From positions 2,624 to 66,623 of the forward strand of contig JBLHVW010000003.1 in NCBI GenBank assembly GCA_047628775.1: DNA of 64,000 nt, given 5' to 3'. This DNA comes from Salibacteraceae bacterium (lineage in GTDB: Bacteria; Bacteroidota; Bacteroidia; Flavobacteriales_D; Crocinitomicaceae). Below the pieces are notes generated by a model, which saw only the letters and a program-made list of their open reading frames with translations, was not told where the DNA came from and made no database searches. Of this stretch, positions 3,581 to 53,321 are shown piece after piece (the stretch's first letter is position 1; the number at the start of each line of letters is the position of its first letter). A program made the translations under genes and the position numbers.

Positions 3581-3583
3581 ACA

Positions 3584-6407: not shown

Positions 6408-6428
6408 TTAACCGTAAAAGTATTTAAA

Positions 6429-7760: not shown

Positions 7761-7912
7761 ACAAAAGAGACGTTCTACTCGGTGTTTAACACACAATTAA
7801 AAAAAACAACGGTATCTTTGTATAATAGACGAACTAACCTCGCTTCTTGTTAATAATTATAAGTCACCTTTCTATAATTAGCAATACGTTGCCGTAATAC
7901 TTAATATGAATT

Positions 7913-28746: not shown

Positions 28747-29265
28747 ATGGCTTTGATTAAAGAATGCAGGGGAAAAAATCCAACCCATGGAAACGATTGC
28801 TGGTTTGCAGAAAATGCAACAATTGTTGGTGATGTCACCATGGGCGATCAATGCTCCGTTTGGTTTAGCGCTGTAATTCGCGGTGATGTGAATTCCATTG
28901 TAATGGGGAACAAAGTCAACATTCAAGACGGCGCTGTGATTCATTGCACCTTCGAAAAAACAAAGACGGTCTTAGGCAACAACGTTTCAATTGGACACAA
29001 TGCTTTGGTGCATGGATGTACTGTTGAAGACAACGTTCTTATCGGAATGGGATCGATCGTTATGGACGATTGCTATATCGAATCTGGAAGTATTATTGCT
29101 GCAGGAGCTGTACTTTTAGAAGGTTCAAAAGTAGGAAAAGGTGAAATTTGGGCTGGCGTTCCCGCTAAGAAAGTAAAGGATATTTCTCCTGAGCTGTTCG
29201 AAGGTGAAGTAATGCGAATTGCGAATAATTACGTGAAGTATTCAAGTTGGTTTAAGGAGGAATAA
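28747..29265 (+). CDS. gamma carbonic anhydrase family (left-handed beta-helix, hexapeptide repeat) protein
   Basis: 172 aa with WFAENATIVGDVTMG, SVWFSAVIRGDVN, NIQDGAVIH, IGHNALVHGCTVEDNVLIGMGSIV and AGVPAKKV, typical of the gamma-CA/YrdA-like family. Confidence 0.9.
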   Translation: MALIKECRGKNPTHGNDCWFAENATIVGDVTMGDQCSVWFSAVIRGDVNSIVMGNKVNIQDGAVIHCTFEKTKTVLGNNVSIGHNALVHGCTVEDNVLIGMGSIVMDDCYIESGSIIAAGAVLLEGSKVGKGEIWAGVPAKKVKDISPELFEGEVMRIANNYVKYSSWFKEE

Positions 29266-32594: not shown

Positions 32595-32610
32595 AATGTA
32601 ATTTATAATG

Positions 32611-37334: not shown

Positions 37335-40300
37335 TTACTGTTTAACAAATCTTTTTCTGACAGTCCCTTTACTTGTGAAAATCACAGCTGTATAAGTTCC
37401 TGTTGCAAGATACTCTACCGAAAAAGATGACGCATAGTGCACATCTACCAATACACCTGTCAAATCATATATCGCTACTTTTTCCAATGTCTGTTCCGTT
37501 TCAATAGTCAATATCGAGAACGATGGATTTGGAAATAGCTTAAGCGATGTCAAATTGTTTTCGTCAATACCTATAGTATTTATGCTTTCACATACAGATG
37601 TTTCAGTACAATTTCCAACAGTTACTTCAACTGCATAATTTCCATTTACCGTCGGAGCAAATGATTGGCCTATTTCACCTGCAATTGGCGAATGGTTATC
37701 ATCACAATCAACCCATTGGTAAGAATCTGCATCGGAATTAGTTGCGACTATTCCATTATTTACCATGACAATTGTTGCATCAACTGTGGTAATGGTTACC
37801 ATTTGACTATGCGTAATTGTATTTCCAGCAGCATCTTCAAGTGTCCATATGATCGTTGTTGCAGCAGTGATTGGATAAGTTGCGTCATTCGATATAGTTA
37901 CTACACCTGAACAGTTGTCCGTTGCCGTTGGAGGCGTTAAACTAGCCACTTCGCATACTGCCGTTATTCCTGGAACACAAGGACCATCTAAAAGAGGAGC
38001 CGTTATATCTTGAACTACTATTAATTGAATTACGTTTATTGAATTACCACAATTATCCGTAATGCTATATGTTCTTGTAATCGTTTCTGGGTTTGACAAA
38101 CCATCAGACACATCAGAGACAAATGCTACTGTAGGTGATGAACAATTGTCAGCTTCATCTGTAATGATCAAAATATCTTGAGCTGGAATATCTCCAGAGC
38201 ATTCAACATTCTCTGTAGCTGGGTTACTCGCAGTTGGCGGTGTAACGTCAAGAATATTGATCGTTTGATCTACCAATATTTGATTACCACAGTCATCCGT
38301 AATGGAAAATGTTCGGGTAATAATCTCCGGACAAACACCACCGTTCGAGACATCACTAACCCACACCACTATTGGTGTATTTCCGTTATCTGCTTCATCT
38401 GTTACAACTATAGGATCAGGAGCAGGCACATCAGAACTGCATTCTACATTCACAGTATTTGGATTACTTGCTGTTGGACTTGTTACATCACTAACAACAA
38501 TTGTTTGTGTTACTGTAATCTGATTACCACAGTCATCCGTGACTGAGTAAGTTCTTGTTATTGTTTCTGGACAACTGCTACCATCCGAGACATCACCTAC
38601 CCACCCCACTATTGGGGTAACCGTGCAATTATCAGCTTCGTTTAGAATTACCAATGGATCTGGTACAGGAACATCCGATATAAGTTCAACAACTATTCCT
38701 CCTGGGACACTTGCAGTTGGAAGGGTAACATCACTAACCGTTATTGTTTGTTCAACTGTTATTGAGTTTCCACAAGCATCAGTGATTGAATACGTTCTTG
38801 TAATCGTTTCTGGACAAGAACCACCATCCGATAAATCGCTTACAAAAGCAACTACTGGAATTGAACAATTATCTACCTCGTCAGTTACTACTAAGACATC
38901 CTGAGCTGGAATATCACTTGCGCATTCAACATTAATTGCAACAGGATTAGAACCCGTAGGGTTAATATTGTCGTCGATAGTATAGGTGTATGTGTAAACA
39001 GAAGAGTTCCCTATATAATCTGTATACGTATACGTGTAAATTTTATCTCCTAAACAGGCAGGATTAGCCCCAACATTAATAACAGGAACTATTGTAGTCC
39101 CGCATTCATCAGTGACATTTGGTGAAGCTGATTGAACAGCATCAGTAATACAATTCACCGTTGACGAGCCATTGGATGGGACAACAGGATTAAGAGTAGG
39201 TACACATTGTGTGATTTTTTCAAGAAAGATATCATTAAGTCCGTTAGATGTTACGTTGAACGTTCCAACATTAGGATCAAAGTCTGCAGTTCCTGCAAAA
39301 TCTCCAAGTGCATATATGTTGTCATTTATATCAACACTTATTGAGCGACCAAAATCGAAATCAGTACCGCCAAAATTTCTAGCCCAAACAAGATCTCCAT
39401 TCGAATCAAGTTTTTGAATATATACATCGGTACTACCATTTGTTATTAGGTTTGATGTACCAGCATTTGGGTCAAAATCTACAGTTGATTGAAACCTACC
39501 CGTTGTATACACATTCCCGGCTAAATCAAGACTTAAAGATCTCCCTTCATCATCTACACCCCCCCCCATAACCTTTGTCCATAACATATTCCCGTTTTGA
39601 TCAAGTTTTTGTACAAATATGTCAGAGCTTCCATTTGAGGTATAATTTAATGTTCCAGCACCTGGGTCAAAATCTACCGTTGACAAAAAAAAACCTGTAG
39701 TATATATATCCCCAGTTTGATTTATCTCAAGACCATACGCAATATCAACTCCAGTACCTCCAAAGCTCTTTGCCCAAAGAAAATTGCCGTTTGGATCAAG
39801 TTTTTGAATGTAAACATCATGTGCTCCATTGCTATTCAAAACTGATGTTCCAGCACCTGGATCAAAATCTACAGAGCCAATGAAAAACCCAGTTGTGTAT
39901 ACATTACCATTTAAATCTGCACGGGTAACTTCTCCACGTTCATCATTCCCACCACCGAAGACTTTTGCCCAAAGAAGATCACCATTAGAATCAAGTTTTT
40001 GAACGAAAACATCAGAGCTTCCATTTGAAGAATAATTCAAAATTCCAGCGCCTGGATCAAAATCGGCTGTTCCAGAAAAGTAGCCTGTTGTAATCACATT
40101 TCCATTGGCATCAATACTAACTGATTGTCCAAAATCCCAAGCAGAACCTCCAAATCCTTTTGCCCATAGTAAATTCCCATTTGGATCAAGTTTTTGAATA
40201 AACACATCGCAGCCTCCTGCAACAGTTAAATTTGTAATTCCTGCATTTGGGTCGAAATCTGTTGTTCCCCAGAAATATCCTGTCGTATAAACATTACCCG

Positions 40301-40628
40301 TAGCATCAGTTGTTATTGAGTATACAAAGTCATCTTGTGTACTCCCGAATGATTTTGCCCAAAGTAAGTTTCCATTTGGATCGAGTTTTTGAATAAACAT
40401 ATCAGACCCACCATTTGATGTTAGGTTGGTTGTTCCAGCACTAGGGTCAAAATCAACAGTAGCAAGGAATCTTCCAGCGCTATAGACATTACCGTTGATG
40501 TCTGCAGTTACAGAATGCGCAAAGTCATCTCCAGTATTCCCAAATGTTTTCGCCCATTCCATATTCTGGGCATTTGATTCGAGTGCTAATAGCGTAATTG
40601 CGATGGTAGCAAGTACAATTTTTTTCAT
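37335..40628 (-). CDS. SBBP beta-propeller repeat + tandem Ig-like Cys repeat protein with T9SS type A sorting domain
   Basis: Eight or more repeats of the type GNVYTTGYF.GT.DFDPGAGT.N..SNG..D.F.QKLD.NGNLLWAK.FGG. Four repeats of about 90 aa follow (TDEADNC...CPETITRTYSITD.CGN). Then the YQWVDCDDN...NGNYAVEVT module and the tail LFPNPSFSILTI...GTYTAVIFTS. Confidence 0.85.
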   Translation of the reverse strand: MKKIVLATIAITLLALESNAQNMEWAKTFGNTGDDFAHSVTADINGNVYSAGRFLATVDFDPSAGTTNLTSNGGSDMFIQKLDPNGNLLWAKSFGSTQDDFVYSITTDATGNVYTTGYFWGTTDFDPNAGITNLTVAGGCDVFIQKLDPNGNLLWAKGFGGSAWDFGQSVSIDANGNVITTGYFSGTADFDPGAGILNYSSNGSSDVFVQKLDSNGDLLWAKVFGGGNDERGEVTRADLNGNVYTTGFFIGSVDFDPGAGTSVLNSNGAHDVYIQKLDPNGNFLWAKSFGGTGVDIAYGLEINQTGDIYTTGFFLSTVDFDPGAGTLNYTSNGSSDIFVQKLDQNGNMLWTKVMGGGVDDEGRSLSLDLAGNVYTTGRFQSTVDFDPNAGTSNLITNGSTDVYIQKLDSNGDLVWARNFGGTDFDFGRSISVDINDNIYALGDFAGTADFDPNVGTFNVTSNGLNDIFLEKITQCVPTLNPVVPSNGSSTVNCITDAVQSASPNVTDECGTTIVPVINVGANPACLGDKIYTYTYTDYIGNSSVYTYTYTIDDNINPTGSNPVAINVECASDIPAQDVLVVTDEVDNCSIPVVAFVSDLSDGGSCPETITRTYSITDACGNSITVEQTITVSDVTLPTASVPGGIVVELISDVPVPDPLVILNEADNCTVTPIVGWVGDVSDGSSCPETITRTYSVTDDCGNQITVTQTIVVSDVTSPTASNPNTVNVECSSDVPAPDPIVVTDEADNGNTPIVVWVSDVSNGGVCPEIITRTFSITDDCGNQILVDQTINILDVTPPTASNPATENVECSGDIPAQDILIITDEADNCSSPTVAFVSDVSDGLSNPETITRTYSITDNCGNSINVIQLIVVQDITAPLLDGPCVPGITAVCEVASLTPPTATDNCSGVVTISNDATYPITAATTIIWTLEDAAGNTITHSQMVTITTVDATIVMVNNGIVATNSDADSYQWVDCDDNHSPIAGEIGQSFAPTVNGNYAVEVTVGNCTETSVCESINTIGIDENNLTSLKLFPNPSFSILTIETEQTLEKVAIYDLTGVLVDVHYASSFSVEYLATGTYTAVIFTSKGTVRKRFVKQ

Positions 40629-41881: not shown

Positions 41882-41960
41882 AAAATGAAAAATCTATACA
41901 ATGCATGTTCAACGAATGAAAAACAAACTGGTTACACACTATAATAATTCATATTATAAT

Positions 41961-42257
41961 AACTACGCAATCGTAGAAGACAATTTTTTGATCGGGATGG
42001 GGTCTATCGTGATGGATGTTTGCTACATCGAATCAGGAAGCATCATTGCAGCTGGAGCTGTTCTTTTAGAAGGAGAAGGCGTGCAACGACTGAAAAACAA
42101 ACGTTAGTGCAGCTTGTTACAGCTGGATATATTTACCTTCGGTGCTACTTCGTGGTGAGGGGGTGTTCCTGCGAAGAAAATCAAGGACATTTCTCCAGAA
42201 TTGTTTCACTTCGTGGCTGCTTCGCGGTGAAGGTGAAGTATTCGGGTTGATTTAAAG
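41961..42257 (+). pseudogene. displaced/degenerate copy of the 3' end of the gamma-CA-like gene (copy 2)
   Basis: Encodes (I)VEDNFLIGMGSIVMDVCYIESGSIIAAGAVLLEG, then VPAKKIKDISPELF and EGEV..YSG segments. These are colinear with 29023-29265 but interrupted by inserts of about 85 nt and 24 nt and a 29-nt deletion. Confidence 0.8.
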
Positions 42258-42314: not shown

Positions 42315-43205
42315 TTAATTAAGACTAATGGTTCCAAGTGTGAATGAATAACACGTATTTCCAGACGAATCTCTACAATCAGATTTTGCGGTTAGAATTA
42401 TACCATTAGCCTCAAATGAATAGAACTTAAATAATCGATCGAATTTTTCACCTTTATCGAAACCATTCGTCAATATCTGGCGTTTTAGAACTTCACCATT
42501 TTCATCAATAACCAAATGAACTGGAGACTCATCTGCCGTAGGTACAGCATTAGAATAACTAACAAAACTGCCCTCTTTAGAATATCTAGAGTCAGCATCA
42601 TTTAGAAATATATTCAATGCACCATCTGCATCTATACCCGTTGCTACAATCGAAGAAGCATGCAAACAATTAGTTCTAACAATTTCTCCATTTGCATCAA
42701 TGAATGTCAATAACAAAACACTAATTGCATTAACTTTCATTTCATTGATTGAAATATATCCTCCATTTAAAAGCTTGTGATCTTGAGTAAAGTTGACGTT
42801 AAAATTCATTTTAATAACACCCTCTTTCTTTTCCTTAATTCTATTTTCAAAATTACTTATGTTATTGCTATTGTTCCCAGCGTATAAATCTGAATAAGGA
42901 ATTTTCACATGACTCTTTTCAATCAGTTCACCGTCTTTCACTTCTAATATGGAAACTATAATTCCTCCATTAGCAAGAATACGGAGCACCTTCAGTCGAA
43001 TACCATTTTCGTCTTCAATAACTGTACTTCCATCAATGACTCCTCCATTTTCAAACTCGAAAGACATTTTCTGTTTTCCGGACTCGTTGTGGAGCTCAAA
43101 AGTAATTTCTCCAGATCGTAAATTGTGGTCGTTCTTGTTGCCTTTATCAAGAGGTGTAGAAAGCATATAAAAGCTCCCTTCTCGAGTAATCCCATAGCCT
43201 AACAT
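42315..43205 (-). CDS. hypothetical protein
   Basis: 296-aa ORF, no signal peptide, no recognised family. Its 5' end overlaps the upstream ORF by 59 nt, so a frameshifted fusion with 43147..43560 is possible. Confidence 0.55.
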   Translation of the reverse strand: MLGYGITREGSFYMLSTPLDKGNKNDHNLRSGEITFELHNESGKQKMSFEFENGGVIDGSTVIEDENGIRLKVLRILANGGIIVSILEVKDGELIEKSHVKIPYSDLYAGNNSNNISNFENRIKEKKEGVIKMNFNVNFTQDHKLLNGGYISINEMKVNAISVLLLTFIDANGEIVRTNCLHASSIVATGIDADGALNIFLNDADSRYSKEGSFVSYSNAVPTADESPVHLVIDENGEVLKRQILTNGFDKGEKFDRLFKFYSFEANGIILTAKSDCRDSSGNTCYSFTLGTISLN

Positions 43206-43560
43206 AGGCTTTATAATCAGCCTCGATGTTATCCTGGTTAACTTTTAAAACATTATCTAGATTTTCCTTATCAAAGACATAAGCCTTCATTGCAAAAGGT
43301 TCTTCAGAATCATAGCTCCATGACATATCAACAAAAGAGAAGTATTTATTGTTCTCTTCTCCTAAAGAGTAATTATACAACTCTTTCTCTCCTTCTAGGA
43401 TGGTTTCTTTCTCCCCTGTAAATTCAAGATTCACCTTGTCTCTGCCAGTTAGAATCAGATCTTTACCTGATTTCGATTTTCCAACACAATATAATTTACC
43501 ATCTATAAGAACAGGAATCAGTCCATTCAACTGATCAACTGTAATTAATTTCTTTTTCAT
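43147..43560 (-). CDS. hypothetical protein
   Basis: 137-aa ORF. Its start overlaps the stop of the upstream 83-aa ORF (TAATG). Confidence 0.5.
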   Translation of the reverse strand: MKKKLITVDQLNGLIPVLIDGKLYCVGKSKSGKDLILTGRDKVNLEFTGEKETILEGEKELYNYSLGEENNKYFSFVDMSWSYDSEEPFAMKAYVFDKENLDNVLKVNQDNIEADYKAYVRLWDYSRRELLYAFYTS

Positions 43561-43811
43561 TAAGCCCTTACCTTTGTAGATGTAATTTGTCCATTCACCG
43601 TATCTAAATAGTGCATTTTCAAATTCATTCCCCCTGAAGCGGGTCTTCTTAATGTCATAAGCCCATTTTCTCCGAATTGGCTCTGTTGATATGCCGTTCC
43701 TTTAATCTCCCCATCCTCTTGAGGTGTAAATTTTATATCTTGAGCCGTTGAAGTTTTCGTGGCGCACACTACTAACAAACTAGCTATTATAACTTTACAT
43801 AAACCTTTCAT
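43560..43811 (-). CDS. small secreted hypothetical protein
   Basis: 83 aa with signal peptide MKGLCKVIIASLLVVCATKTSTAQ. Confidence 0.5.
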   Translation of the reverse strand: MKGLCKVIIASLLVVCATKTSTAQDIKFTPQEDGEIKGTAYQQSQFGENGLMTLRRPASGGMNLKMHYLDTVNGQITSTKVRA

Positions 43812-43910
43812 TCTTCGGAGAAATTAGTGGATTATTCTGTGTCCAAATCTAGTGAATAATATGATTCAAGTGCGACTTAAGTGGCTATTCCAGAAACAAC
43901 AAAGCCATAT

Positions 43911-44238
43911 CTACGCAACGGTTGAAGTCCAAGTGTTGATCGGAATGGGAGCAATCGTGATCGATATCTGTTATATCGAATCAGGTTCAATCATTGCGGC
44001 CGGAGCTGTTCTTTTGGAAGAAGAGGGCTTGCAACGACTGAAAAACAAACGTTAGTGAAGCTTGTTACAGCTGATATATTTACCTTCAGCGCTACTTCGT
44101 GGTGAGGGGGGGGGGAGTTCCTGCAAAGAAAGTCAAGGACATTTCTCCAGAATTGTTTCACTTCGTGGCTGCTTCGCGGTAAAGGTGAAGTGATGCGAAT
44201 TGCGAATAATTACGTGAAGTATTCGGGTTGATCTAAAA
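43911..44238 (+). pseudogene. displaced/degenerate copy of the 3' end of the gamma-CA-like gene (copy 3)
   Basis: Encodes VEVQVLIGMGAIVIDICYIESGSIIAAGAVLLEE, the same 85-nt and 24-nt inserts as copy 2, and VPAKKVKDISPELF. It retains GEVMRIANNYVKYSG. A G10 run lies at 44106-44115. Confidence 0.8.
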
Positions 44239-44905: not shown

Positions 44906-46813
44906 TTAATCAATTACGTTAAACTTCTCAATAATAGTTTCGGAAGCTAAAGTCACTGCAAGAATATACATACCATTAAATTTACGACCCAATGCTATTT
45001 TTGACTCATAATTTTCTGAATAGTAGACACGCTCTCCAATTAAGTTATAGACAGAAGTTGAGATAATTTCGTCCTTATCGCCTGAAAATGATATGTTTAA
45101 AGTTTCAACACAAGGATTGGGATATATTGACACTTCGCTTTCGTTTCGTTGGCAGATATCCTGAGAAATAGCAGTATAGTCTTTAATTGCACCATTAATA
45201 TCTCTTTGTTGCAATTTATAATAGGTTAAACTATTATATGGTTCATTATCAGTAAAAGAATATTTATTTATTGACGTAGAATTACCGGCACCGTTAATTC
45301 GGGCTATATCTTCCCATTCATTCCCGTCTTTGGTTCTATATATTGAGAAATAATCATTATTAATTTCTGTTGCAGTACTCCATTCCAATTCAACACCTTG
45401 ACCACTGCATTTAGCTGTAAACGATGTCAATTCTACTGGTAAGGGTGTACTTGGACATAAGTTTGGAATTACGCAAATAGTAGCGCTATTAGTGACTGAT
45501 AGCGAGTAAGAAATAGCTCCAGTTGTAGAAAAAAGTCTGCCCTCCAAAGTACTTAAAGCATCAATAAACACAGCCCCATTATTTGAAATAAAAGTGCCTT
45601 TAACATCAGATCCTGTAGCAATTGAAATTGCGCCTTCGACCACAAAGAAAACATTACATGAAGCGGCATCATTTATGAGGACTATATTACTGAATACTGC
45701 GGTAGAAAAAGCCCCACTACACCTAATTATAAATACGGCGCTAGGGTTAGCTTGAGCATCCAAAGTAAGAGTGCCTAAGAGCGATGAAGCACCTGTTATA
45801 TAGGTAGCTCCTGGATACAATGTATCACCTCCTAATACAGGTGAATGAGTGTTCGTTATTGGAATAGATATTAAAGAAGTATAAAGAGCCAATAAATCAG
45901 CACTTGCTTGAGCTGTAACTGCATTAGCATTATGCTCAAGGCCTATTAAAGTTGCGACTCCAAACCCTGAAACAGCGCCAACGTTAGATCCAACATTTCC
46001 TGTGATATTAGATGCTCCAGCATTACTAAGAGCTCCATTACTTGTAAAAAGAGCAAAATAATTTGTAGAGCCAAAATCAGGATTGCAAATCTCTGGAGGG
46101 GGAGGAACTGAAATCGTTGAACTTGTGCAATTAGATAGGTAAAATACTGAAGAATTATTAATCGAAATTGCTCCTGAAGTTGTAAGTAAGTGTCCTTCAA
46201 AATTAACATTAGCCGCAATGGCAATAGCAGCGTTATTCACAATGATAGTACCTTTAACTGTAGATGCGGCAGCAATAGTTGCCGCTCCTTCTGATATCCA
46301 GTAGACATTACAAGGACGTGCATCGTTTATTAAAATAAGATTAGCAGCTGCACCTACAACAAAAGCACCTGTGAACTTAAAAATAAATACTGCATTAGTA
46401 TCTCCTTGGCCATCTAGCGTAAGATTCCCCCCAAAAGACCCTGCACCTGCTATACCATAGACTCCATTGGTTAGAGTTTCACCTGCCCCAAAAGCAGCTG
46501 GATGCGACCCTACTGTTACGGGCACACTAACTAGCTGATTATAAGCAATACCAACATCTACAGCAGCCTGTTCTGTTATTGAATCAATAGTATAAACGGA
46601 ACCAATAATCGTAGATGTTGCAAACCCAAGAGTATCTCCCAGATCAGAACCTAGATCACCGGTTAAAGTTGAACTGCCCGTGCAAGAAACCCCTCCATTT
46701 CCTGTAAATAGAATAAAATTTTCTGCGGTACCTAGACTAAATGTTTGTCCTAGAGATATATTTGGGGAAATTAATGCAAAGGCTATTAGGAGGTATTGTA
46801 TTTTTTTATTCAT
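44906..46813 (-). CDS. two-domain DUF3494 ice-binding family protein with T9SS type A sorting domain
   Basis: Signal peptide, then two modules of about 200 aa. Module 1: LGTAENFILFTG...LTGDLGS...LTNGVYGIAGAGSFGGNLTLDGQGDTNAVFIFKFTGAFVVGAAANLILINDARPCNVYWISEGA...GHLLTTSGAIS. Module 2: NYFALFTSNGA...GNVGS...LTLDAQANPSAVFIIRCSGAFST...ASCNVFFVVEGA...GRLFSTTGAIS. Then the LEWSTATEINNDYFSIYRT module and the tail IYPNPCVETLNI. Confidence 0.85.
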   Translation of the reverse strand: MNKKIQYLLIAFALISPNISLGQTFSLGTAENFILFTGNGGVSCTGSSTLTGDLGSDLGDTLGFATSTIIGSVYTIDSITEQAAVDVGIAYNQLVSVPVTVGSHPAAFGAGETLTNGVYGIAGAGSFGGNLTLDGQGDTNAVFIFKFTGAFVVGAAANLILINDARPCNVYWISEGAATIAAASTVKGTIIVNNAAIAIAANVNFEGHLLTTSGAISINNSSVFYLSNCTSSTISVPPPPEICNPDFGSTNYFALFTSNGALSNAGASNITGNVGSNVGAVSGFGVATLIGLEHNANAVTAQASADLLALYTSLISIPITNTHSPVLGGDTLYPGATYITGASSLLGTLTLDAQANPSAVFIIRCSGAFSTAVFSNIVLINDAASCNVFFVVEGAISIATGSDVKGTFISNNGAVFIDALSTLEGRLFSTTGAISYSLSVTNSATICVIPNLCPSTPLPVELTSFTAKCSGQGVELEWSTATEINNDYFSIYRTKDGNEWEDIARINGAGNSTSINKYSFTDNEPYNSLTYYKLQQRDINGAIKDYTAISQDICQRNESEVSIYPNPCVETLNISFSGDKDEIISTSVYNLIGERVYYSENYESKIALGRKFNGMYILAVTLASETIIEKFNVID

Positions 46814-46904: not shown

Positions 46905-49900
46905 TTATCTTAAGAGGTTCATATGTCCCGTTTCTAAATATCGTTTGGCTGAGTAAAAGTCTTTAACCTCAATTTTCCAAATATAGGAGCCTTCTTGAGA
47001 GTATTGACCCTTATAACTTCCATCCCAACCTAATTTTGCGTCATGACTTTCAAATACTAATTCTCCCCATCGATTGAAAATGAGCAAGCTGTAATCAAAT
47101 GGATCAAAACCTGAAGTAAAAACAGGCGTAAAAGTCTGATTTAATTCATTCCCATCGGGAGTAAACGTATTCGGTATATAGAAAATTAACTCTTCTTTTA
47201 CCACAACTTTTTTAACAATTGAATCAGTACAACCAAATTCGTTAATTACTGTCAATGTAACGTTATACGTTTCAGCTTCGAATAATTCAAATTGATGACT
47301 TGGAGAAAAGTCACTTGAATTCAAGGTTTGATCTCCAAAATCCCAAATATAATATTGAGCGCCAGAAGAAGTGTTGATAAATTGTACCTCGGAATTTAAT
47401 GAAGTCAATTCAGCCGAATTAAAGAAGAAATCGGCAGTTACTTGATCGTATTCGGAAATTATCAAAATGACAACACTATCACATCCAAATGATGAAATCA
47501 GTGATTCAGTAAATGTTCCAGGTCCAAATACATTTCCTAGCGAACTAATATATTCATCTCCGAAACAAATATATTCGTAAACTGTATTAATAATGGGCCC
47601 CAGCTCTGTCACCACAAAAGTCACTGTGCTATCGCAGCCAGTAGCAGAGGTATACGTTTCATCGAAGGAACCTGCTCCATAAATGTTTGCTTGCGGAGAT
47701 GTGAATTGAGATCCATTACAGACTGTTTCATTCACTGTACTGGCATATGCGATTTGCTCTGTTACAACAAAAGTCACTGTGCTATCGCAGCCAGTAGCAG
47801 AGGTATACGTTTCATCGAAAGAACCTGCTCCATAATTGTTTGCTTGCGGAGACGTGAATTGAAATCCATTACAAACTGTTTCACTCACTGTACTGGCATA
47901 TGCGATTTGCTCTGTTACAACAAAAGTCACTGTACTATCACAACCAGTGGCAGAGGTATACGTTTCATCGAAAGAACCTGCTCCATAATTGTTTCCTTGC
48001 GGAGATGTGAATTGAAATCCATTGCAGACTGTTTCATTCACTGTACTGGCATATGCAATTTGCTCTGTCATTACAAAAGTCACCGTGCTATCACAACCAG
48101 TAGCAGAGGTATACGTTTCATCGAAGGAACCTGCTCCATAACTGTTTCCTTGCGGAGATGTGAATTGAGATCCATTGCATATTGTTTCATTCACTGTACT
48201 GGCATATGCGATTTGCTCTGTCACTACAAAAGTAACCGTGCTATCACAACCAGTAGCAGAGGTATACATTTCATCGAAAGAACCTGCTCCATAATTGTTT
48301 GCTTGCGGAGATGTGAATTGAAATCCATTACAGACTGTTTCATTCACTGTAATGGTATATGCGATTTGCTCTGTTACAACAAAAGTCACGGTGCTATCAC
48401 ACCCAGTGACAGAGGTATACGTTTCATCGAAGGAACCTGCTCCATAAATGTTTGCTTGCGGAGATGTGAATTGAGATCCATTGCATATTATTTCATTCAC
48501 CGTACTGGTATATGCGATTTGCTCTGTTACAACAAAAGTCACCGTGCTATCACAACCTGTAGCAGAGATATACGTTTCATCGTAAGAACCTGCTCCATAA
48601 ATGTTTGCTTGCGGAGATGTGAATTGAAATCCATTACAGACTGTTTCATTCACTGTACTGGCATATGCTATTTGCTCTGTAACTACAAAAGTCACCGTGC
48701 TATCACAGCCAGTAGCAGAGGTATATGTTTCATCGTAAGAACCTGCTCCATAAATGTTTGCTTGCGGAGACGTGAATTGAAATCCATTACAAACTGTTTC
48801 ATTCACTGTACTGGCATATGCGATTTGCTCTGTTACAACAAAAGTCACTGTGCTATCACAGCCAGTAGCAGAGGTATACGTTTCATCGAAAGAACCTGCT
48901 CCATAATTGTTTGCTTGCGGAGACGTGAATTGAAATCCATTACAAACTGTTTCATTCACTGTACTGGCATATGCGATTTGCTCTGTCACTACAAAAGTTA
49001 CCGTGCTATCGCAGCCAGTAGCAGAGGTATACGTTTCATCGAAAGAACCTGCTCCATAATTGTTTGCTTGCGGAGACGTGAATTGAAATCCATTACAAAC
49101 TGTTTCATTCACTGTACTGGCATATGCGATTTGCTCTGTTACAACAAAAGTCACTGTACTATCACAACCAGTGGCAGAGGTATACGTTTCATCGAAAGAA
49201 CCTGCTCCATAATTGTTTGCTTGCGGAGATGTGAATTGAGATCCATTACAGACTGTTTCATTCACTGTACTGGCATATGCTATTTGCTCTGTAACTACAA
49301 AAGTCACTGTGCTATCACAACCAGTGGCAGAGGTATACGTTTCATCGAAAGAACCTGCTCCATAATTGTTTGCTTGCGGAGATGTGAATTGAGATCCATT
49401 ACAGATTGTTTCATTCACTGTATTGGCATATGCGATTTGCTCTGTTACAACAAAAGTCACGGTGCTATCACAACCAGTAGCAGAGGTATACATTTCATCG
49501 AAAGAACCTGCTCCATAACTGTTTCCTCCTGGGGACGTGAATTGAAATCCATTACAAACTGTTTCATTCACTGTATTGGCATATGCGATTTGCTCTGTTA
49601 CAACAAAAGTCACCGTGCTATCACAACCTGTGGCAGAGATATACGTTTCATCGTAAGAACCTGCTCCATAAATGTTTGCTTGCGGAGATGTGAATTGAAA
49701 TCCATTACAAACTGTTTCATTCACTGTACTGGCATATGCTATTTGCTCTGTAACGACAAAAGTCACCGTGCTATCACAACCAGTAGCAGAGGAATACGTT
49801 TCATCGAAAGAGCCTGCTCCATAACTGTTTGCTTGCGGAGATGTAAATTGAAATCCATTACAGACTGTTTCATTCACTGTATTGGTATATGCGATTTGCT

Positions 49901-51674
49901 CTGTTACAACAAAAGTCACGGTGCTATCACAACCAGTAGCAGAGGTATACGTTTCATCGTAAGAACCTGCTCCATAACTGTTTGCTTCCGGAGATGTGAA
50001 TTGAGATCCATTACAGATTGTTTCATTCACTGTACTGACATATGCGATTTGCTCTGTTACAACAAAAGTCACGGTGCTATCACAACCAGTGGAAGAGGTA
50101 TACGTTTCATCGAAAGAACCTGCTCCATAATTGTTTGCTTGCGGAGATGTGAATTGAAATCCATTACAAACTGTTTCATTCACTGTACTGGCATATGCGA
50201 TTTGCTCTGTTACAACAAAAGTCACGGTGCTATCACAACCAGTAGCAGAAGTATACGTTTCATCGTAAGAACCTGCTCCATAATTGTTTGCTTGCGGAGA
50301 TGTGAATTGCAATCCATTACAAACTGTTTCATTCACTGTACTGGCATATGCGATTTGCTCTGTTACCACAAAAGTCACGGTACTATCACAACCATTAGCA
50401 GAGGTATATGTTTCATCGAAAGAACCTGCTCCATAGCTGTTTGCCTGCGGAGATGTGAATTGAGATCCATTACAGACTGTTTCATTCACTATATCATTGG
50501 TAACTACCAAAACACTAACGTTTGTCACAATTATTGAATCACACCCCTGAGTCGTTAGTAAATTTGATGTATGAGAAGTATTTGCGATAATAACTTGGTT
50601 AAAATTATCAGGGTAAATTACCGTATCATTTAAACAAGATGTGATATTCTCAATAACGTTATAACTCGCGCCTCCATTCGGCACAATAACGTCAATTGTA
50701 TCTTGACAAGTGTTAGACGATGTATCAATAGCAATAATTTGGTACATTCCATCCGATAAACTTGGAATCGAATATGTACCTGTGAAGTAGCTACTATAAG
50801 TAACGCTATTAATTAAAACGTCATAAACAAAGGATGAACCAGCAATTGTAAGGTCAATTGATCCATCATTTCCTGTACAAGACTCAGCAATTGCCGATCC
50901 ATTAATTACTAAATCACAAACACTTGGAGTAATGGAACAAATTGGTAAGTTTATTGTTCCATTATATATAGATGCCGCACCATTGGTAGTAAGCATTCTG
51001 CCCTCTAACGCTACCCCATCTCCCATAGAAATGGCCCCATTGTTTGACACAATAGTTCCTTTCATATTCGTATTAGCAGCCAAATGCATCGCTCCTTCTG
51101 CAATCCAAAACACATTACAAGCCAATGCCCCGCCTGTCAAAATAACGTTAGAAGAGGCCCCCGCAGAAAAGGCACCTCCAAATTGAAAAATAAATAGTGT
51201 GTCAGGATTCCCCTCTGCATCTAATATCAAGTTTCCGCCTAATGATCCCGCTCCTCCAGTATTATACACCCCTGCAGTAAGTGTTTCTGTTCCAAATGCA
51301 GGTGGATGCGAAGTAACTGTTGGAGTTATTGCAACTATTTCGTCATATGCAGCCTGCACATCAATTAAACATTGTGCAGTTGATGCATTCGCTAACTCTA
51401 TATTTCCAATAACCACATTGGGAGCGCCAAACCCGGTGATGGCACCTACATGTGTACCAATATGACCTGTAATATTTGTTGTAGTACCTGTGTTTCCTAA
51501 TGCCCCTAATGAAGTAAATATGGCATAGTTGCTTGCTGTACCCAAGTTAGGTGGCTGTGCTAAAGAAATATTAGGAAATAATAAAGCTGAAACAATAAAT
51601 TTTAATAATGGGCTAATTATCTTTGTTTGCTTACTTGATGAGCGCTTATGAATTTTCGAAAAAGAAGTTGCCAT
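46905..51674 (-). CDS. giant surface protein: DUF3494 ice-binding-like head, 19 near-identical 51-aa repeats, PKD-like domain, T9SS type B (gliding motility-associated) C-terminal domain
   Basis: The ORF is open to 51821; the likely start is the ATG at 51674 (MATSFSKIHKRSSSKQTKIISPLLKFIVSALLFPNISLAQ). DUF3494 signature: LGTASNYAIFT...GHIGT...LTAGVY...GNLILDAEGNPDTLFIFQFGGAFSAGASSNVILTGGALACNVFWIAEGA...GRMLTTNGA. Repeat unit: TVNETVCNGFQFTSPQANNYGAGSFDETYTSATGCDSTVTFVVTEQIAYAS. C-terminus: IPNTFTPDGNELNQTFTPVF...LLIFNRWGELVFES...GWDGSYKGQ...GSYIWKIEVKD. Confidence 0.85.
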   Translation of the reverse strand: MATSFSKIHKRSSSKQTKIISPLLKFIVSALLFPNISLAQPPNLGTASNYAIFTSLGALGNTGTTTNITGHIGTHVGAITGFGAPNVVIGNIELANASTAQCLIDVQAAYDEIVAITPTVTSHPPAFGTETLTAGVYNTGGAGSLGGNLILDAEGNPDTLFIFQFGGAFSAGASSNVILTGGALACNVFWIAEGAMHLAANTNMKGTIVSNNGAISMGDGVALEGRMLTTNGAASIYNGTINLPICSITPSVCDLVINGSAIAESCTGNDGSIDLTIAGSSFVYDVLINSVTYSSYFTGTYSIPSLSDGMYQIIAIDTSSNTCQDTIDVIVPNGGASYNVIENITSCLNDTVIYPDNFNQVIIANTSHTSNLLTTQGCDSIIVTNVSVLVVTNDIVNETVCNGSQFTSPQANSYGAGSFDETYTSANGCDSTVTFVVTEQIAYASTVNETVCNGLQFTSPQANNYGAGSYDETYTSATGCDSTVTFVVTEQIAYASTVNETVCNGFQFTSPQANNYGAGSFDETYTSSTGCDSTVTFVVTEQIAYVSTVNETICNGSQFTSPEANSYGAGSYDETYTSATGCDSTVTFVVTEQIAYTNTVNETVCNGFQFTSPQANSYGAGSFDETYSSATGCDSTVTFVVTEQIAYASTVNETVCNGFQFTSPQANIYGAGSYDETYISATGCDSTVTFVVTEQIAYANTVNETVCNGFQFTSPGGNSYGAGSFDEMYTSATGCDSTVTFVVTEQIAYANTVNETICNGSQFTSPQANNYGAGSFDETYTSATGCDSTVTFVVTEQIAYASTVNETVCNGSQFTSPQANNYGAGSFDETYTSATGCDSTVTFVVTEQIAYASTVNETVCNGFQFTSPQANNYGAGSFDETYTSATGCDSTVTFVVTEQIAYASTVNETVCNGFQFTSPQANNYGAGSFDETYTSATGCDSTVTFVVTEQIAYASTVNETVCNGFQFTSPQANIYGAGSYDETYTSATGCDSTVTFVVTEQIAYASTVNETVCNGFQFTSPQANIYGAGSYDETYISATGCDSTVTFVVTEQIAYTSTVNEIICNGSQFTSPQANIYGAGSFDETYTSVTGCDSTVTFVVTEQIAYTITVNETVCNGFQFTSPQANNYGAGSFDEMYTSATGCDSTVTFVVTEQIAYASTVNETICNGSQFTSPQGNSYGAGSFDETYTSATGCDSTVTFVMTEQIAYASTVNETVCNGFQFTSPQGNNYGAGSFDETYTSATGCDSTVTFVVTEQIAYASTVSETVCNGFQFTSPQANNYGAGSFDETYTSATGCDSTVTFVVTEQIAYASTVNETVCNGSQFTSPQANIYGAGSFDETYTSATGCDSTVTFVVTELGPIINTVYEYICFGDEYISSLGNVFGPGTFTESLISSFGCDSVVILIISEYDQVTADFFFNSAELTSLNSEVQFINTSSGAQYYIWDFGDQTLNSSDFSPSHQFELFEAETYNVTLTVINEFGCTDSIVKKVVVKEELIFYIPNTFTPDGNELNQTFTPVFTSGFDPFDYSLLIFNRWGELVFESHDAKLGWDGSYKGQYSQEGSYIWKIEVKDFYSAKRYLETGHMNLLR
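47604..50496 (-). repeat. tandem array, 153-bp unit x about 19 (coding, in frame)
   Basis: The period was measured directly: GATTTGC at 47751 recurs at 47904. Units differ at only a few positions. Degenerate copies flank the array on both sides. Confidence 0.95.
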
Positions 51675-52290
51675 TTTGTGACAGCATTCTGTAATGACTT
51701 CAAAAACAACACTAAAGATGTAACGTACTGCTCTTTTCATAAAAAAAGTATTAGTTAAAACGATTGGAAATGTTGACCTTTTTGCGTCAGGCCCTCTAAA
51801 AAAAACCAAATAAATCATCAACTACCCTTAAGGGGAACTGATAATTTTTCAAATAAAAAATCCATTTGAATAACCAATAGAAAATTTAGAAGTGATCGAA
51901 AATAAAGTCATTTGATTACGGACAAGAGATTAAAAGTCTCAGGTATAAAGTAAGGAGAAAGCACGAATGTGTTTTGTTACTTAGTAGTAATATTCTTTAT
52001 TAACTCAATCTAGTCAATTTAAACATTAAAGAATTATAAATTCGTCAAATGACCGTATTTAAGCTTCAAATCATCTAATTATACCGTTTAATTAAACTCG
52101 AATAGTGTCGCTTTTGTAATTTGGTTTCTTAATTCAACTATTATTAGTTAATAACTTTTAGATTTATTTTGTCAACAAACACTAATGTTCATCTGAAATT
52201 TGAAGATTGCTTAATAGGGTTGGTGAATTCTATAGAATATAATGACTCTAATTTAAGATAGTTAATCCTTGCTAAACTATCTTAACTAAC

Positions 52291-53321
52291 TGTCCAGTCC
52301 CTTGCAGCAGCTACAAACGATAGTACTCACACAAATTAGGAGAGCAAATTAAGGTGTGAATTTAAAGCTGTATTACTAAAAGAACAAAGAGAAAATTCAG
52401 TGCTTCATTTAAGACAAAAGTAGGTCTTGAAGCAATTAAAGAAAGACTAACAAGCCAAGAATTAGCTTCCAAGTATGAAATTCATTCCAATCAGGTTACT
52501 CAATGGAAGAAGGAGTTTCTAGAAAATGCTTCAGCTTGGTTTGAAACAAAAGCAAAGTAAGACAACGATGATGTTGAAAAGGAAAAACTTTATGGTAAAA
52601 TCGGGCAACTTCAAGTTGAGAAAGATTTTTTAAACTTTGTCTGGGGGAAATGAGTACAACAAAAAAGAGACAAAAAGTTGTAAAGCCTCATCCAGAGCAA
52701 AGTCTAGACAGCCAATGTAAAGTATTGAATATTCATCGCTCAGGTCTTTATTATAAGCCAAAGGGAAAAAGTGCTCTGAACTTAATTTTAATGTAGCATG
52801 TTGATAAATACTTTCTTGGACATCCATGTTACTGGGTAGAGCGAATGACGGACTATTTGAATAAGAATTTCGGATATCGTGTAAATGTAAAAAGGGTACG
52901 TAGATTACATGAAATAATGAGTTAAAACACCATTTATTGCAAACCACGAACAACCATTAAAGACAAGTCAAGGATCACAATACACCAGCGATGACTATAC
53001 CGAAACATTGGAGTCACATAAAATAGAGATTTCGATAGACGGAAGAGGAAGAGCTCTTGACAATATTTACATAGAGCGATTTTGGAGATCGTTGAAATAT
53101 GAAAAGATCTATCTCAACCCGGCCAACAGTGGTTTAGAACTATATGAAAATCTTAATCAATACATTCGATTTCACAATCAAGAAAGACGCCATACAGAGA
53201 TCGGAAAAGTTCCACCTGACGAGATATTTTACAAGAAATCAATGGCGTGTTAACAATAAAGAATTAACTTAAACCTGTTCTAAAGATGGGGAGTGCCTCA
53301 CGCAACTGCAAAACCGGAGCA
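52291..53321 (+). mobile_element. IS3-family insertion sequence remnant (no start codon, stops, internal deletion of the DDE core)
   Basis: OrfA-like KRKFSASFKTKVGLEAIKERLTSQELASKYEIHSNQVTQWKKEFLENAS...KLYGKIGQLQVEKDFL. OrfB fragments are LNIHRSGLYYKPKG and GYRVNVKRVRRLHEIM, then a jump to SQGSQYTSDDYTETLESHKIEISIDGRGRALDNIYIERFWRSLKYEKIYL...NQERRH (ORF 53008..53253). Candidate imperfect terminal IRs are TGTCCAGTCCCTTGCAGCAGC (52291) and, inverted, TGCTCCGGTTTTGCAGTTGCG (53321). Confidence 0.8.

What the first reader, a model, noticed from the sequence alone, without database searches (positions are those of the whole stretch)
46905..51821. Candidate T9SS-anchored ice adhesin: DUF3494 head on a stalk of 19 near-identical 51-aa repeats
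Seen in sequence: after a signal-like N-terminus comes a region of about 210 aa with the DUF3494/ice-binding-family signature. Next come 1-2 degenerate and 19 almost identical 51-aa two-cysteine repeats, a PKD-like domain and a gliding-motility type B C-terminal domain. Established: DUF3494 is the main microbial ice-binding protein family, and its members are mostly small secreted proteins. The well-studied bacterial ice adhesin of Marinomonas primoryensis puts an unrelated RTX-type ice-binding domain on a long tandem-repeat stalk exported by a type I system. Type B CTD proteins such as SprB stay attached to the Bacteroidota cell surface. Inference: this protein would place an ice-binding head at the distal end of a repeat stalk anchored through the T9SS. 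That is a convergent ice-adhesin design built from different parts. I do not recognise the 51-aa repeat as a named domain.
Basis: partly seen in the sequence, partly recalled or inferred. Interest (0 to 1): 0.85.

Follow-up and report, generated by a model that had tools for sequence, protein, structure and literature searches.

The report
Stalked ice-binding surface protein, T9SS-exported
A sea-ice-type Crocinitomicaceae bacterium encodes a 1,589-1,638 aa surface protein with a genuine ice-binding head on a 21-unit repeat stalk and a type IX secretion anchor signal, which is a new build of the already-proposed "tethered DUF3494 ice adhesin" idea, not a new principle.

Summary
ORF 46905-51821 (minus strand) encodes these parts in order:
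- a signal-like N-terminus;
- a DUF3494/Ice_binding domain (124 bits);
- one SprB-type module;
- 21 units of 51 aa, of which 19 are near-identical and one at each end is degenerate;
- a PKD domain;
- a type B T9SS C-terminal domain.

The head is 47% identical to domain A of IBPv, a protein with measured ice-binding activity. It models as the canonical beta-solenoid (pLDDT 95-98; 1.5 Å rmsd to 5UYT). All five small residues of IBPv's mutationally defined ice-binding row are alanine here.

The 51-aa unit has no Pfam or NCBIfam model but is very common: 32,097 representative proteins carry it, with up to 87 units each, mostly T9SS cargo. It models confidently (pLDDT 92) as tandem small beta modules resembling the GhpA grappling-hook stem.

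Orthologues occur only in close Crocinitomicaceae relatives, including a sea-ice MAG. They sit next to the same 2xDUF3494 type-A-CTD gene.

Ice adhesion and cell anchorage are inferred, not shown. No PorP/SprF partner gene lies in the window. Tethered DUF3494 adhesins are already published (SfIBP_1), so this is a new variant of a known kind.

The parts
46905..51821 (-). Maximal ORF of the stalked ice-binding protein: 1638 aa from TTG. The probable start is the ATG at 51674, giving 1589 aa.
51558..51674 (-). Signal-like N-terminus (aa 50-88): basic n-region, hydrophobic LLKFIVSALLF, and S-L-A|Q at the likely cleavage site. The hydrophobic core and the cleavage motif are conserved in orthologues; the start codon is not.
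   Evidence: Sequence read directly. No signal-peptide predictor was available.
50943..51557 (-). DUF3494 / Ice_binding head (aa 89-293): a beta-solenoid with one long alpha-helix. All five first-row ice-binding-site positions are Ala (max-ORF aa 107, 217, 244, 263, 282).
   Evidence: Pfam 124 bits. 47% identity to IBPv domain A, PDB 5UYT. AF2 pLDDT 95-98. Foldseek gives 31 IBP structures, best rmsd 1.5 Å.
50670..50924 (-). SprB-type repeat module (aa 300-384), carrying the motif ESCTGNDGSIDLTIAG.
   Evidence: Pfam SprB 15.6 bits, below the 28-bit cut-off. BLASTP gives 34% identity, E 2e-7, to the SprB-repeat segment of P0174. The AF2 model has low confidence here.
50499..50651 (-). Degenerate N-terminal 51-aa unit (aa 391-441). 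It belongs to a distinct 'YPDG...ANTS' subtype also seen in P0121, P0134 and P0162.
47592..50498 (-). 19 near-identical 51-aa two-cysteine units (aa 442-1410); 153-nt period, mean 91.7% nucleotide identity, all units distinct.
   Evidence: TRF. Unit table. Identity matrix, and 78 synonymous against 58 non-synonymous codon differences. AF2 of three units, pLDDT 92.4.
47439..47591 (-). Degenerate C-terminal 51-aa unit (aa 1411-1461).
   Evidence: positionally conserved in L002
47208..47411 (-). PKD domain (aa about 1471-1538).
   Evidence: PKD_4 36.6 bits and PKD 30.8 bits, both above cut-off
46908..47177 (-). T9SS type B C-terminal sorting domain (aa 1549-1638).
   Evidence: TIGR04131 39.4-43.8 bits (cut-off 35); CHU_C 43.5-46.9 bits
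44906..46813 (-). Co-oriented downstream neighbour, 91 nt away: a 635-aa protein with two DUF3494 domains and a T9SS type A CTD (IBPv-like). The gene pair is syntenic in the sea-ice MAG locus L002.

Best explanation
The gene encodes a cell-surface, stalk-mounted ice-binding protein, which would function as an ice adhesin.

Proposed mechanism:
1. A Sec signal takes the protein to the periplasm.
2. There the two conserved cysteines of each 51-aa unit probably form a disulfide, and the conserved D-S-[I/V/T] sequons may be O-glycosylated.
3. The type B C-terminal domain is recognised by the T9SS and handed to a PorP/SprF-type outer-membrane shuttle encoded elsewhere. This holds the C-terminus at the cell surface.
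4. The PKD domain, 21 small beta modules and one SprB-type module form an acidic extender of about 150 kDa.
5. The N-terminal DUF3494 beta-solenoid sits at the far end. It binds ice through a flat face whose central row is five alanines.

The neighbouring two-domain DUF3494 protein with a type A CTD would supply the diffusible or LPS-linked ice-structuring activity. The locus would then give the cell both an ice modifier and an ice tether.

What is shown: domain identities, order and folds; homology to active IBPs; lineage restriction; purifying selection on the repeats.

What is inferred: secretion, retention at the surface, disulfides and glycosylation, ice affinity, and adhesion.
For: Head:
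- PF11999 at 124 bits.
- Best PDB sequence match is IBPv 5UYT, E 2e-73, at 47% identity over 202 positions.
- IBPv's mutagenesis-defined ice-binding row in domain A is A41, A212, A193, L174, A147, and the L174A change raises its thermal hysteresis (PMC5673226). That row maps to five alanines here.
- The AF2 head has pLDDT 95-98. All 31 significant Foldseek PDB hits are characterised IBPs/AFPs; the best is 5UYT at rmsd 1.5 Å over 212 columns.

Export and anchor:
- TIGR04131 and CHU_C score above cut-off at the extreme C-terminus.
- The window carries at least 7 other cargo genes with a type A CTD above the Pfam cut-off, plus CotH just below it, so a T9SS is in use.
- Type B CTD proteins bind PorP-like proteins for surface anchorage (PMC9143113). 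They are directed either to a static anchor or to the gliding track (PMC12618676).

Stalk:
- 21 units.
- AF2 of three units gives pLDDT 92.4, all-beta.
- The closest solved folds are the Ig-like stem repeats of GhpA, a T9SS-exported surface appendage, together with Rib domains.
- The same unit builds proteins of up to 87 units that end in T9SS tails.
- Synonymous changes outnumber non-synonymous ones between units (78 against 58).

Ecology and conservation:
- Orthologues at 88-89% identity occur in a sea-ice Crocinitomicaceae MAG and one other, and at 66% in a third MAG. The repeat array is present in all of them, and the IBP neighbour gene is the same where the sequence is available (L002).
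- More distant head relatives come from sea-ice, glacier and Antarctic Flavobacteriia.
Against: - There is no experimental evidence of ice binding, secretion or retention.
- No PorP/SprF-like or PorE-like gene lies next to the gene or among the window ORFs scanned. The anchor partner is therefore hypothetical.
- The IBP-like solenoid fold also occurs in non-ice adhesive domains such as choice-of-anchor A and ComZ (bioRxiv 2023.03.06.531300), and PF11999 members occur in some non-polar MAGs.
- Ice-binding faces are poorly conserved in sequence among DUF3494 IBPs (PMC5673226), so the Ala-row match is suggestive only.
- The start codon is uncertain, and the signal peptide was not tested with a predictor.
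- Inter-unit geometry is uncertain (pTM 0.64), and model coordinates could not be inspected. Stalk length and Cys-Cys distances were therefore not measured.
- The copy number of 19 is unverified. The full-length orthologue in L002 has 7 near-identical units.
Confidence: 0.6

Rival explanations
1. The protein is a surface-displayed ice-structuring protein and not an attachment device. The stalk keeps an antifreeze / recrystallisation-inhibiting head close to the producer as a privatised good, shaping the brine pocket around the cell. Holding the cell to ice is not the selected function.
For: The closest characterised relative, IBPv, is a thermal-hysteresis / recrystallisation-inhibition protein. 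The adjacent gene is an IBPv-like two-domain protein. Winder et al. found little support for tethering as the dominant role of multidomain DUF3494 proteins (PMC9957290).
Against: A single head tethered on a long extender gives a very low local concentration compared with a secreted IBP. The locus already encodes a two-domain type-A-CTD IBP for that job. A tethered head that binds ice irreversibly adheres the cell to it physically whatever the 'purpose'. The chassis (SprB module, 51-aa units, PKD, type B CTD) is that of adhesins.
Confidence: 0.15
2. The protein is a general surface adhesin whose DUF3494-fold head binds something other than ice, such as diatom or algal surfaces, exopolymer or mineral. 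The IBP-like solenoid would be used as a generic water-ordering adhesive module.
For: IBP-like solenoids serve as adhesive domains in diatom Trailins and choice-of-anchor A proteins, and in the ComZ pilus tip. The stalk and CTD chassis is shared with hundreds of proteins that have other heads. Some PF11999 homologues occur in non-polar MAGs.
Against: Here the head is a sequence-level PF11999 member (124 bits), 47% identical to an active IBP, with the small-residue row intact. The non-ice examples share the fold only. Orthologues and nearest homologues come overwhelmingly from sea ice, glaciers and Antarctica.
Confidence: 0.12
3. The protein is released. The type B CTD mediates export only, and the protein acts as a long soluble or matrix-embedded IBP, for example cross-linking exopolymer to ice.
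For: No cognate PorP/SprF or PorE gene lies nearby. CTD swaps show that the CTD decides between release and attachment, and this CTD's partner is unknown.
Against: The type B CTD substrates whose localisation has been examined so far (SprB, PG1035, Fjoh_3952, Fjoh_4750, Fjoh_1123) are cell-associated, either on the gliding track or statically anchored. Orphan type B substrates use a shuttle encoded elsewhere.
Confidence: 0.1
4. The 19-unit array is an assembly artefact, and the real gene has few or no near-identical units.
For: Two related assemblies break inside the array (L001/P0001 and L003). The only other complete copy has 7 near-identical units. The longest exact internal repeat is 128 nt, which could mislead short-read assemblers.
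Against: All 19 units differ from each other (83-99% identity). The frame is intact over 2.9 kb, with an excess of synonymous changes. The edge units are positionally orthologous with L002. Arrays of at least 7 and at least 8 near-identical units exist in independent assemblies. 9 of 132 large family members also have near-identical adjacent units.
Confidence: 0.05

Closest known systems
SfIBP_1 of Shewanella frigidimarina (DUF3494 domain PDB 6BG8), proposed as a 'new type of ice adhesin' by Vance, Graham & Davies 2018
   Same: A DUF3494 ice-binding domain is joined to a run of tandem beta-sandwich extender domains and a predicted cell anchor. The functional idea is the same: a tethered IBP gives ice adhesion. 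The 6BG8 domain matches the head by sequence (E 3.6e-13) and by structure (TMt 0.78).
   Different: From my own knowledge of the paper and the summary in PMC9957290, SfIBP_1 belongs to a gammaproteobacterium, its extender is made of BIg domains, and its DUF3494 is C-terminal to them. Here the polarity is reversed: N-terminal head, C-terminal anchor. The extender is an unnamed 51-aa two-Cys unit, and export and anchoring go through a T9SS type B CTD. Head identity is only about 24%.
IBPv, the two-domain IBP of Flavobacteriaceae bacterium 3519-10 (PDB 5UYT)
   Same: It is the closest characterised relative of the head: 47% identity, rmsd 1.5 Å, with the same small-residue ice-binding row. It is also the model for the neighbouring gene 44906-46813.
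   Different: IBPv has two DUF3494 domains, no stalk and no type B CTD. It acts as a soluble thermal-hysteresis / recrystallisation-inhibition protein.
MpIBP, the 1.5-MDa RTX ice adhesin of Marinomonas primoryensis
   Same: It works the same way: a long tandem-repeat extender projects an ice-binding domain from the outer membrane (PMC5550230 and PMC5014055).
   Different: The ice-binding domain is an unrelated Ca2+-dependent RTX beta-solenoid. MpIBP has about 120 BIg repeats, uses type I secretion with an N-terminal anchor, and carries additional sugar- and peptide-binding domains. No homology was detected apart from generic beta-sandwich hits.
SprB / GhpA-class giant T9SS surface appendages (type B CTD adhesins of Bacteroidota)
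   Same: These share a C-terminal T9SS sorting domain, long runs of small Ig-like, disulfide-bearing repeats, and the presence of SprB repeats. The best structural matches of the 51-aa unit are GhpA stem and neck fragments (E 2.7e-5, TMq 0.41-0.45). Type B CTD anchoring works through PorP/SprF.
   Different: This protein is much smaller (1.6 kaa against 5.9-6.5 kaa). There is no adjacent sprF/ghpB-like gene. The repeat profile shows no sequence similarity to GhpA. None of those proteins has an ice-binding head.
Multidomain DUF3494 T9SS cargo of cold-habitat Bacteroidota: 2xDUF3494 + FG-GAP/ASPIC + DUF7619 + Por_Secre_tail (about 1,400-1,500 aa), and the 2,311-aa Flavobacterium degerlachei GEVED + Ig_7 + PKD_6 + 2xDUF3494 ORF
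   Same: DUF3494 is fused to adhesion-type modules and exported by the T9SS. Such architectures are listed in the Arctic survey (PMC9957290).
   Different: Those proteins carry a type A CTD (or none was detected), different accessory domains, and no homogeneous repeat stalk.

Membership tests
DUF3494 / Ice_binding (PF11999) ice-binding proteins | Match to the family HMM above the gathering threshold | tested here: met
   124 bits against a 28.7-bit cut-off, E 8.5e-36, profile positions 6-207 of 208
DUF3494 / Ice_binding (PF11999) ice-binding proteins | Discontinuous right-handed beta-solenoid with one long alpha-helix packed alongside | tested here: met
   AF2 gives pLDDT 95-98 with helix 58-75 plus beta coils. 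Foldseek matches 31 IBP crystal structures, with TMt up to 0.95 and rmsd 1.3-1.6 Å.
DUF3494 / Ice_binding (PF11999) ice-binding proteins | Flat ice-binding face with a row of small residues and a Thr/Ser row | tested here: inconclusive
   By alignment to IBPv domain A, the five first-row positions are all Ala and T214 becomes Ser.
DUF3494 / Ice_binding (PF11999) ice-binding proteins | Measured ice affinity (thermal hysteresis, recrystallisation inhibition, ice shaping) | not testable with these tools
   Requires recombinant protein
T9SS type B CTD cargo (TIGR04131 / PF13585) | Type B sorting-domain HMM above cut-off at the extreme C-terminus | tested here: met
   TIGR04131 39.4-43.8 bits (cut-off 35) and CHU_C 43.5-46.9 bits (cut-off 27), aa 1549-1638 of 1638
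T9SS type B CTD cargo (TIGR04131 / PF13585) | N-terminal Sec signal peptide | tested here: inconclusive
   A basic n-region, a hydrophobic core and SLA|Q are visible and conserved in orthologues. The start codon is ambiguous and no predictor was available.
T9SS type B CTD cargo (TIGR04131 / PF13585) | Cognate PorP/SprF-like shuttle, often encoded adjacent, with or without PorE | tested here: not met
   No PorP/SprF or PorE family hit in any of the 32 window ORFs scanned, including both neighbours. None is visible downstream in L002 by ORF inspection. Adjacency is frequent but not obligatory: three F. johnsoniae orphans share a distant shuttle.
T9SS type B CTD cargo (TIGR04131 / PF13585) | Host organism has a T9SS | tested here: met
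   Indirect evidence: at least 7 other genes in the window carry a Por_Secre_tail above the Pfam cut-off, and CotH scores just below it. The lineage is Crocinitomicaceae, order Flavobacteriales.
RTX-type bacterial ice adhesin (MpIBP family) | RTX Ca2+-bound ice-binding solenoid, BIg extender, T1SS C-terminal signal | tested here: not met
   No RTX, BIg or T1SS families appear in the Pfam/NCBIfam scans. The only link is a weak generic beta-sandwich Foldseek hit. This protein is a functional analogue, not a member.
SfIBP_1-type tethered DUF3494 adhesin | DUF3494 domain plus a tandem beta-sandwich extender plus a cell anchor | tested here: met
   All three elements are present in kind. The extender family, the polarity and the anchor type all differ, so the protein shares the functional class and is not an orthologue.
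Unnamed 51-aa 'C...GCDS' repeat family of Bacteroidota surface proteins | Unit of about 51 aa with invariant C9 and G36-C37-D38-S39, arrayed head to tail, usually in T9SS cargo | tested here: met
   Profile A1 finds 21 units here and 32,097 representative proteins overall, 9,344 of them at E<=1e-30. The modal spacing is 51 aa. Six of the seven large members scanned end in a Por_Secre_tail, and Pfam does not cover the repeat in any of the seven.
SprB-like gliding adhesin | Many SprB repeats, very large size, adjacent sprF, movement on the gliding track | tested here: not met
   There is one sub-threshold SprB-type module, the protein is 1.6 kaa, and there is no sprF. Movement is not testable here.

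The most novel reading that the evidence does not exclude
The protein is an orphan type B CTD substrate with no adjacent PorE-like gene. In F. johnsoniae that genomic situation goes with substrates that are loaded onto the gliding machinery and are not statically anchored (PMC12618676). On this reading the protein would be a mobile, track-driven adhesin whose tip binds ice specifically, letting a Crocinitomicaceae cell glide along ice or brine-channel walls. That would be 'motility on ice' with ice itself as the substratum ligand.
Probability: 0.1. Interest if true: 0.85.

Novelty: new variant of a known kind. Interest (0 to 1): 0.5.

Why it matters
If the head binds ice and the CTD retains the protein on the cell, this would be the first ice adhesin assigned to the Bacteroidota type IX secretion pathway. 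It would be the third independent way of building one, after the RTX/T1SS MpIBP and the BIg-tethered SfIBP_1. It would come from a family (Crocinitomicaceae) that recurs in sea-ice metagenomes.

The locus pairs a tethered IBP with a two-domain type-A-CTD IBP. That makes a clean natural system for asking whether attaching to ice and structuring ice are separate functions.

There is also a side result. The stalk unit is a very abundant domain, present in more than 32,000 cluster representatives. It has a confident predicted fold but no Pfam or NCBIfam model, so it deserves a family definition. Its invariant C-D-S-[I/V/T] motif may mark one disulfide and one O-glycosylation site per unit in T9SS adhesin stalks.

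Tried and rejected
- **Naming the 51-aa unit.** Pfam and NCBIfam scans of isolated units at E up to 10 gave only noise: CLIP_1, CBM13-like, citrate synthase. PDB sequence searches with the units and with the 34-sequence profile gave nothing relevant. The GhpA similarity is structural only.
- **Looking for a PorP/SprF or PorE partner.** Four Pfam scans of neighbouring and distant ORFs found none. Five ORFs of at least 150 aa more than 17 kb away were not scanned: 14234-14800, 19022-19534, 25203-26567, 26569-27156 and 28747-29265.
- **Modelling head, SprB module and first units together.** Only the head was confident. Residues after about 210 had pLDDT below 70, because the alignment there rests on a single orthologue.
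- **Measuring stalk length and Cys-Cys distances.** This was not possible because model coordinates are not exposed to the scripting tool.
- **Linking the JGI sample numbers of the orthologue contigs to a named expedition.** The MOSAiC MAG paper does not list those identifiers in its main text. The ecological argument therefore rests on record titles such as 'HBSea_ice_MAG418' and on the named cold-habitat isolates.
- **Searching for the architecture elsewhere.** I found no other DUF3494 head among the 150 top repeat-bearing proteins or among the 120 closest PKD + type B CTD cassettes. The word-indexed searches appear biased towards short, fragmentary proteins, so absence there is weak evidence.
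- **Literature search.** No paper in the searchable library contains both 'DUF3494' and 'T9SS'. The Vance 2018 and 2019 FEBS J papers are not in the library and were used only as cited by others.


Full report
**1. What is in the sequence**

The minus-strand ORF 46905..51821 is real and intact. It is 1638 aa from the first TTG. The first 49 codons are probably not translated. An ATG at 51674 opens MATSFSKIHKRSSSKQTKIISPLLKFIVSALLFPNISLA|QPPN, which has a basic stretch, a hydrophobic core and a small-x-small site.

The hydrophobic core and cleavage motif are conserved in orthologues, but the Met is not. The start is therefore uncertain, and the signal peptide is read from the sequence, not predicted by a tool.

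Curated models confirm each named part:
- Ice_binding PF11999: 124 bits against a cut-off of 28.7, aa 107-290.
- PKD_4 and PKD: both above cut-off, at about aa 1471-1538.
- CHU_C and TIGR04131 (type B sorting domain): both above cut-off, on the last 90 residues.

TRF reports a 153-nt period with 18.9 copies at 92% identity. In protein register there are 19 near-identical 51-aa units, with one degenerate unit on each flank.

An 85-aa SprB-type module lies between head and stalk. It is sub-threshold in Pfam, but 34% identical (E 2e-7) to a segment of P0174, a protein with a precomputed SprB-repeat (PF13573) hit.

The 948-aa antisense ORF across the array is a by-product of the repeat.

**2. Is the array real?**

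- The 19 units are all different from each other, at 83-99% nucleotide identity (mean 91.7%). The longest exact internal repeat is 128 nt.
- Codon differences from the unit consensus are 78 synonymous against 58 non-synonymous. That is the signature of a translated, constrained sequence.
- Three independent assemblies of related genomes carry the same gene with the same unit.
- Two of those assemblies end inside the array: L001/P0001 (66% identity) and L003 (88% identity, with at least 8 units before the contig end).
- The third, L002, is complete and has 7 near-identical units between the same two degenerate end units.
- The edge units are positional orthologues between the window and L002, whereas the interior units are not. 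This fits expansion, contraction or homogenisation in the interior.

The stalk is therefore real. The number 19 cannot be certified without reads.

**3. The head**

- The best PDB sequence match is IBPv (5UYT, E 2e-73), a protein with measured thermal hysteresis. The SfIBP_1 DUF3494 domain (6BG8) is also matched.
- Identity to IBPv domain A is 47% over 202 positions.
- Wang et al. defined the ice-binding face of IBPv by mutagenesis. One row of small residues is A41-A212-A193-L174-A147 in domain A, and replacing the bulky L174 by Ala increased activity (PMC5673226).
- In the window protein all five positions are alanine, and T214 is serine.
- With an 86-sequence alignment, AlphaFold2 gives pLDDT 95-98 for the first 205 mature residues, with the characteristic long helix beside the beta coils.
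- All 31 significant Foldseek PDB hits are characterised IBPs or antifreeze proteins. The best is 5UYT at 1.5 Å over 212 columns.

This is as strong as computation can make the case for an ice-binding head. It is not proof, because ice-binding faces are poorly conserved in this family and the fold is also used by non-ice adhesins.

**4. The stalk unit**

No Pfam or NCBIfam model matches it, whether in this protein or in large family members that Pfam otherwise annotates only with a T9SS tail.

A word-indexed search found 81 proteins. A 34-unit profile built from them has invariant C9, C37 and D38, and near-invariant G36 and S39. Searched exhaustively, that profile found:
- 32,097 cluster representatives at E<=1e-3 and 9,344 at E<=1e-30;
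- up to 87 units per protein, in proteins of up to 6,310 aa;
- units that follow each other head to tail with a modal spacing of 51 aa.

Near-identical adjacent units, as seen here, occur in 9 of 132 large members.

Three window units modelled with a 59-sequence alignment give pLDDT 92.4 and an all-beta structure, with strands 2-9, 25-32 and 38-48 in each unit.

The nearest solved folds are fragments of GhpA, together with Rib domains:
- GhpA is the T9SS-exported grappling hook of Aureispira. Its stem is built of Ig-like repeats with many intramolecular disulfides and a glycan on every domain.
- The profile has no sequence match in the PDB.

From my own knowledge, the invariant D-S-[I/V/T] fits the Bacteroidota O-glycosylation sequon D-(S/T)-(A/I/L/V/M/T). 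There are 22 such sites in the stalk.

The unit is therefore an abundant, unnamed extender module of Bacteroidota surface proteins. The PKD + type B CTD cassette behind it is likewise generic: 296 hits at E<=1e-10, the 120 listed being 39-56% identical, and none of those with PF11999.

**5. Context and lineage**

- Immediately downstream (91 nt, same strand) lies a 635-aa protein with two DUF3494 domains and a type A CTD, which is the IBPv architecture. The head is 47% and 44% identical to its two domains, so the two genes are old paralogues.
- The gene pair is syntenic in L002. The upstream 1279-aa and roughly 800-aa genes are syntenic in L003.
- In the window, an IS remnant (an rve_3 fragment) sits in the upstream gap.
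- Besides this neighbour, the window holds at least six more genes with a type A CTD above the Pfam cut-off, plus CotH just below it. It holds only this one type B gene, and no PorP/SprF or PorE homologue.
- The closest genome records are Crocinitomicaceae MAGs, one of them named as a sea-ice MAG.
- More distant head homologues come from Brumimicrobium glaciale, from Antarctic and other Flavobacterium isolates and glacier-stream MAGs, and from polar MAGs.
- Among the 120 best head homologues and the 50 genome loci, only the orthologues combine the head with this repeat.

**6. Mechanism**

The best-supported reading is a T9SS-exported, C-terminally held, stalk-mounted ice-binding protein.

- The polarity follows from established T9SS biology. 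The CTD is the part recognised and bound by the outer-membrane shuttle (PMC9143113 and PMC12618676), so the N-terminal head is distal.
- The mature protein without its CTD is about 153 kDa with pI about 4.
- Which shuttle binds it is unknown, as is whether it is static or track-borne. In F. johnsoniae, type B substrates without a PorE-like gene in their operon are the ones directed to the gliding machinery. This leaves open the more novel reading that the protein is a mobile ice adhesin.

The rivals are a tethered ice-structuring role, a non-ice ligand, release from the cell, and an assembly artefact. They are weighed in the structured sections of this report.

**7. Comparison and novelty**

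The functional idea is published. SfIBP_1 joins a DUF3494 domain to tandem beta-sandwich domains and was proposed as an ice adhesin. Arctic metagenomes contain DUF3494 proteins with up to 26 TSP3 repeats or 7 BIg domains (PMC9957290). MpIBP is the experimentally established analogue, built from unrelated parts.

Three things are new here:
- the export and anchor route, a T9SS type B CTD (no paper in the searchable library mentions DUF3494 together with T9SS);
- the reversed polarity;
- the use of the unnamed 51-aa unit as a homogeneous stalk.

I therefore class it as a new variant of a known kind and score interest at about 0.5. It is a good experimental candidate and exposes an unannotated, very large repeat family, but it would not surprise specialists in principle.

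Noticed in passing
window 47439-50651 (and 32,097 proteins elsewhere): The 51-aa two-Cys 'C...GCDS' unit is a very large repeat family with no Pfam or NCBIfam model. It occurs at up to 87 units per protein, mostly in T9SS cargo, and has a confident predicted fold (pLDDT 92). Its invariant D-S-[I/V/T] coincides with the Bacteroidota O-glycosylation sequon, giving 22 such sites in this stalk.
   Followed up: partly
window 44906-46813 (-): The neighbouring gene encodes an IBPv-like protein with two DUF3494 domains and a T9SS type A CTD. It lies 91 nt downstream on the same strand, and the pair is syntenic in the sea-ice MAG locus L002 (4525-6432). The two genes may form a two-gene ice module.
   Followed up: partly
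window 41959-42239 and 43907-44191: A direct duplication of about 280 nt (167 nt at 83% plus 86 nt at 93%, spacing about 1950 nt) brackets three small or unknown ORFs (42315-43811, minus strand). Each copy carries a short ORF ending in a hexapeptide-transferase-like peptide (...IESGSIIAAGAVLLE.EG.QRLKNKR). This may be the footprint of an insertion into, or a duplication of, a gene fragment.
   Followed up: no
window 53008-53253 (+): An 81-aa rve_3 integrase fragment (an IS remnant) sits in the 1.5-kb gap upstream of the adhesin gene. In the syntenic locus L003 the corresponding gap is about 0.9 kb.
   Followed up: no
window 47691-50537 (+): A 948-aa antisense ORF spans the repeat array. It is an artefact: the 153-nt unit has no stop codon in one antisense frame. 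The same thing is seen in L002 (2617-3780).
   Followed up: yes
window 1970-9325, 30210-34950, 37335-40628: T9SS type A cargo genes are unusually dense here: CotH kinase-like (its tail scores just below cut-off), three FG-GAP proteins, a protein with five HYR_4C domains, and a 470-aa unknown. An HTTM / vitamin-K-carboxylase-like gene (6429-7760) lies among them.
   Followed up: no
L017, L030, L042, L044 (about 1,400-1,500 aa ORFs) and L018:6410-13342: Other cold-habitat Bacteroidota encode large 2xDUF3494 + FG-GAP/ASPIC + SdrD_B + DUF7619 + Por_Secre_tail proteins; L044 carries the same architecture but its record is labelled Gammaproteobacteria. Flavobacterium degerlachei has a 2,311-aa GEVED + Ig_7 + PKD_6 + 2xDUF3494 ORF. 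Multidomain DUF3494 T9SS cargo is common.
   Followed up: partly
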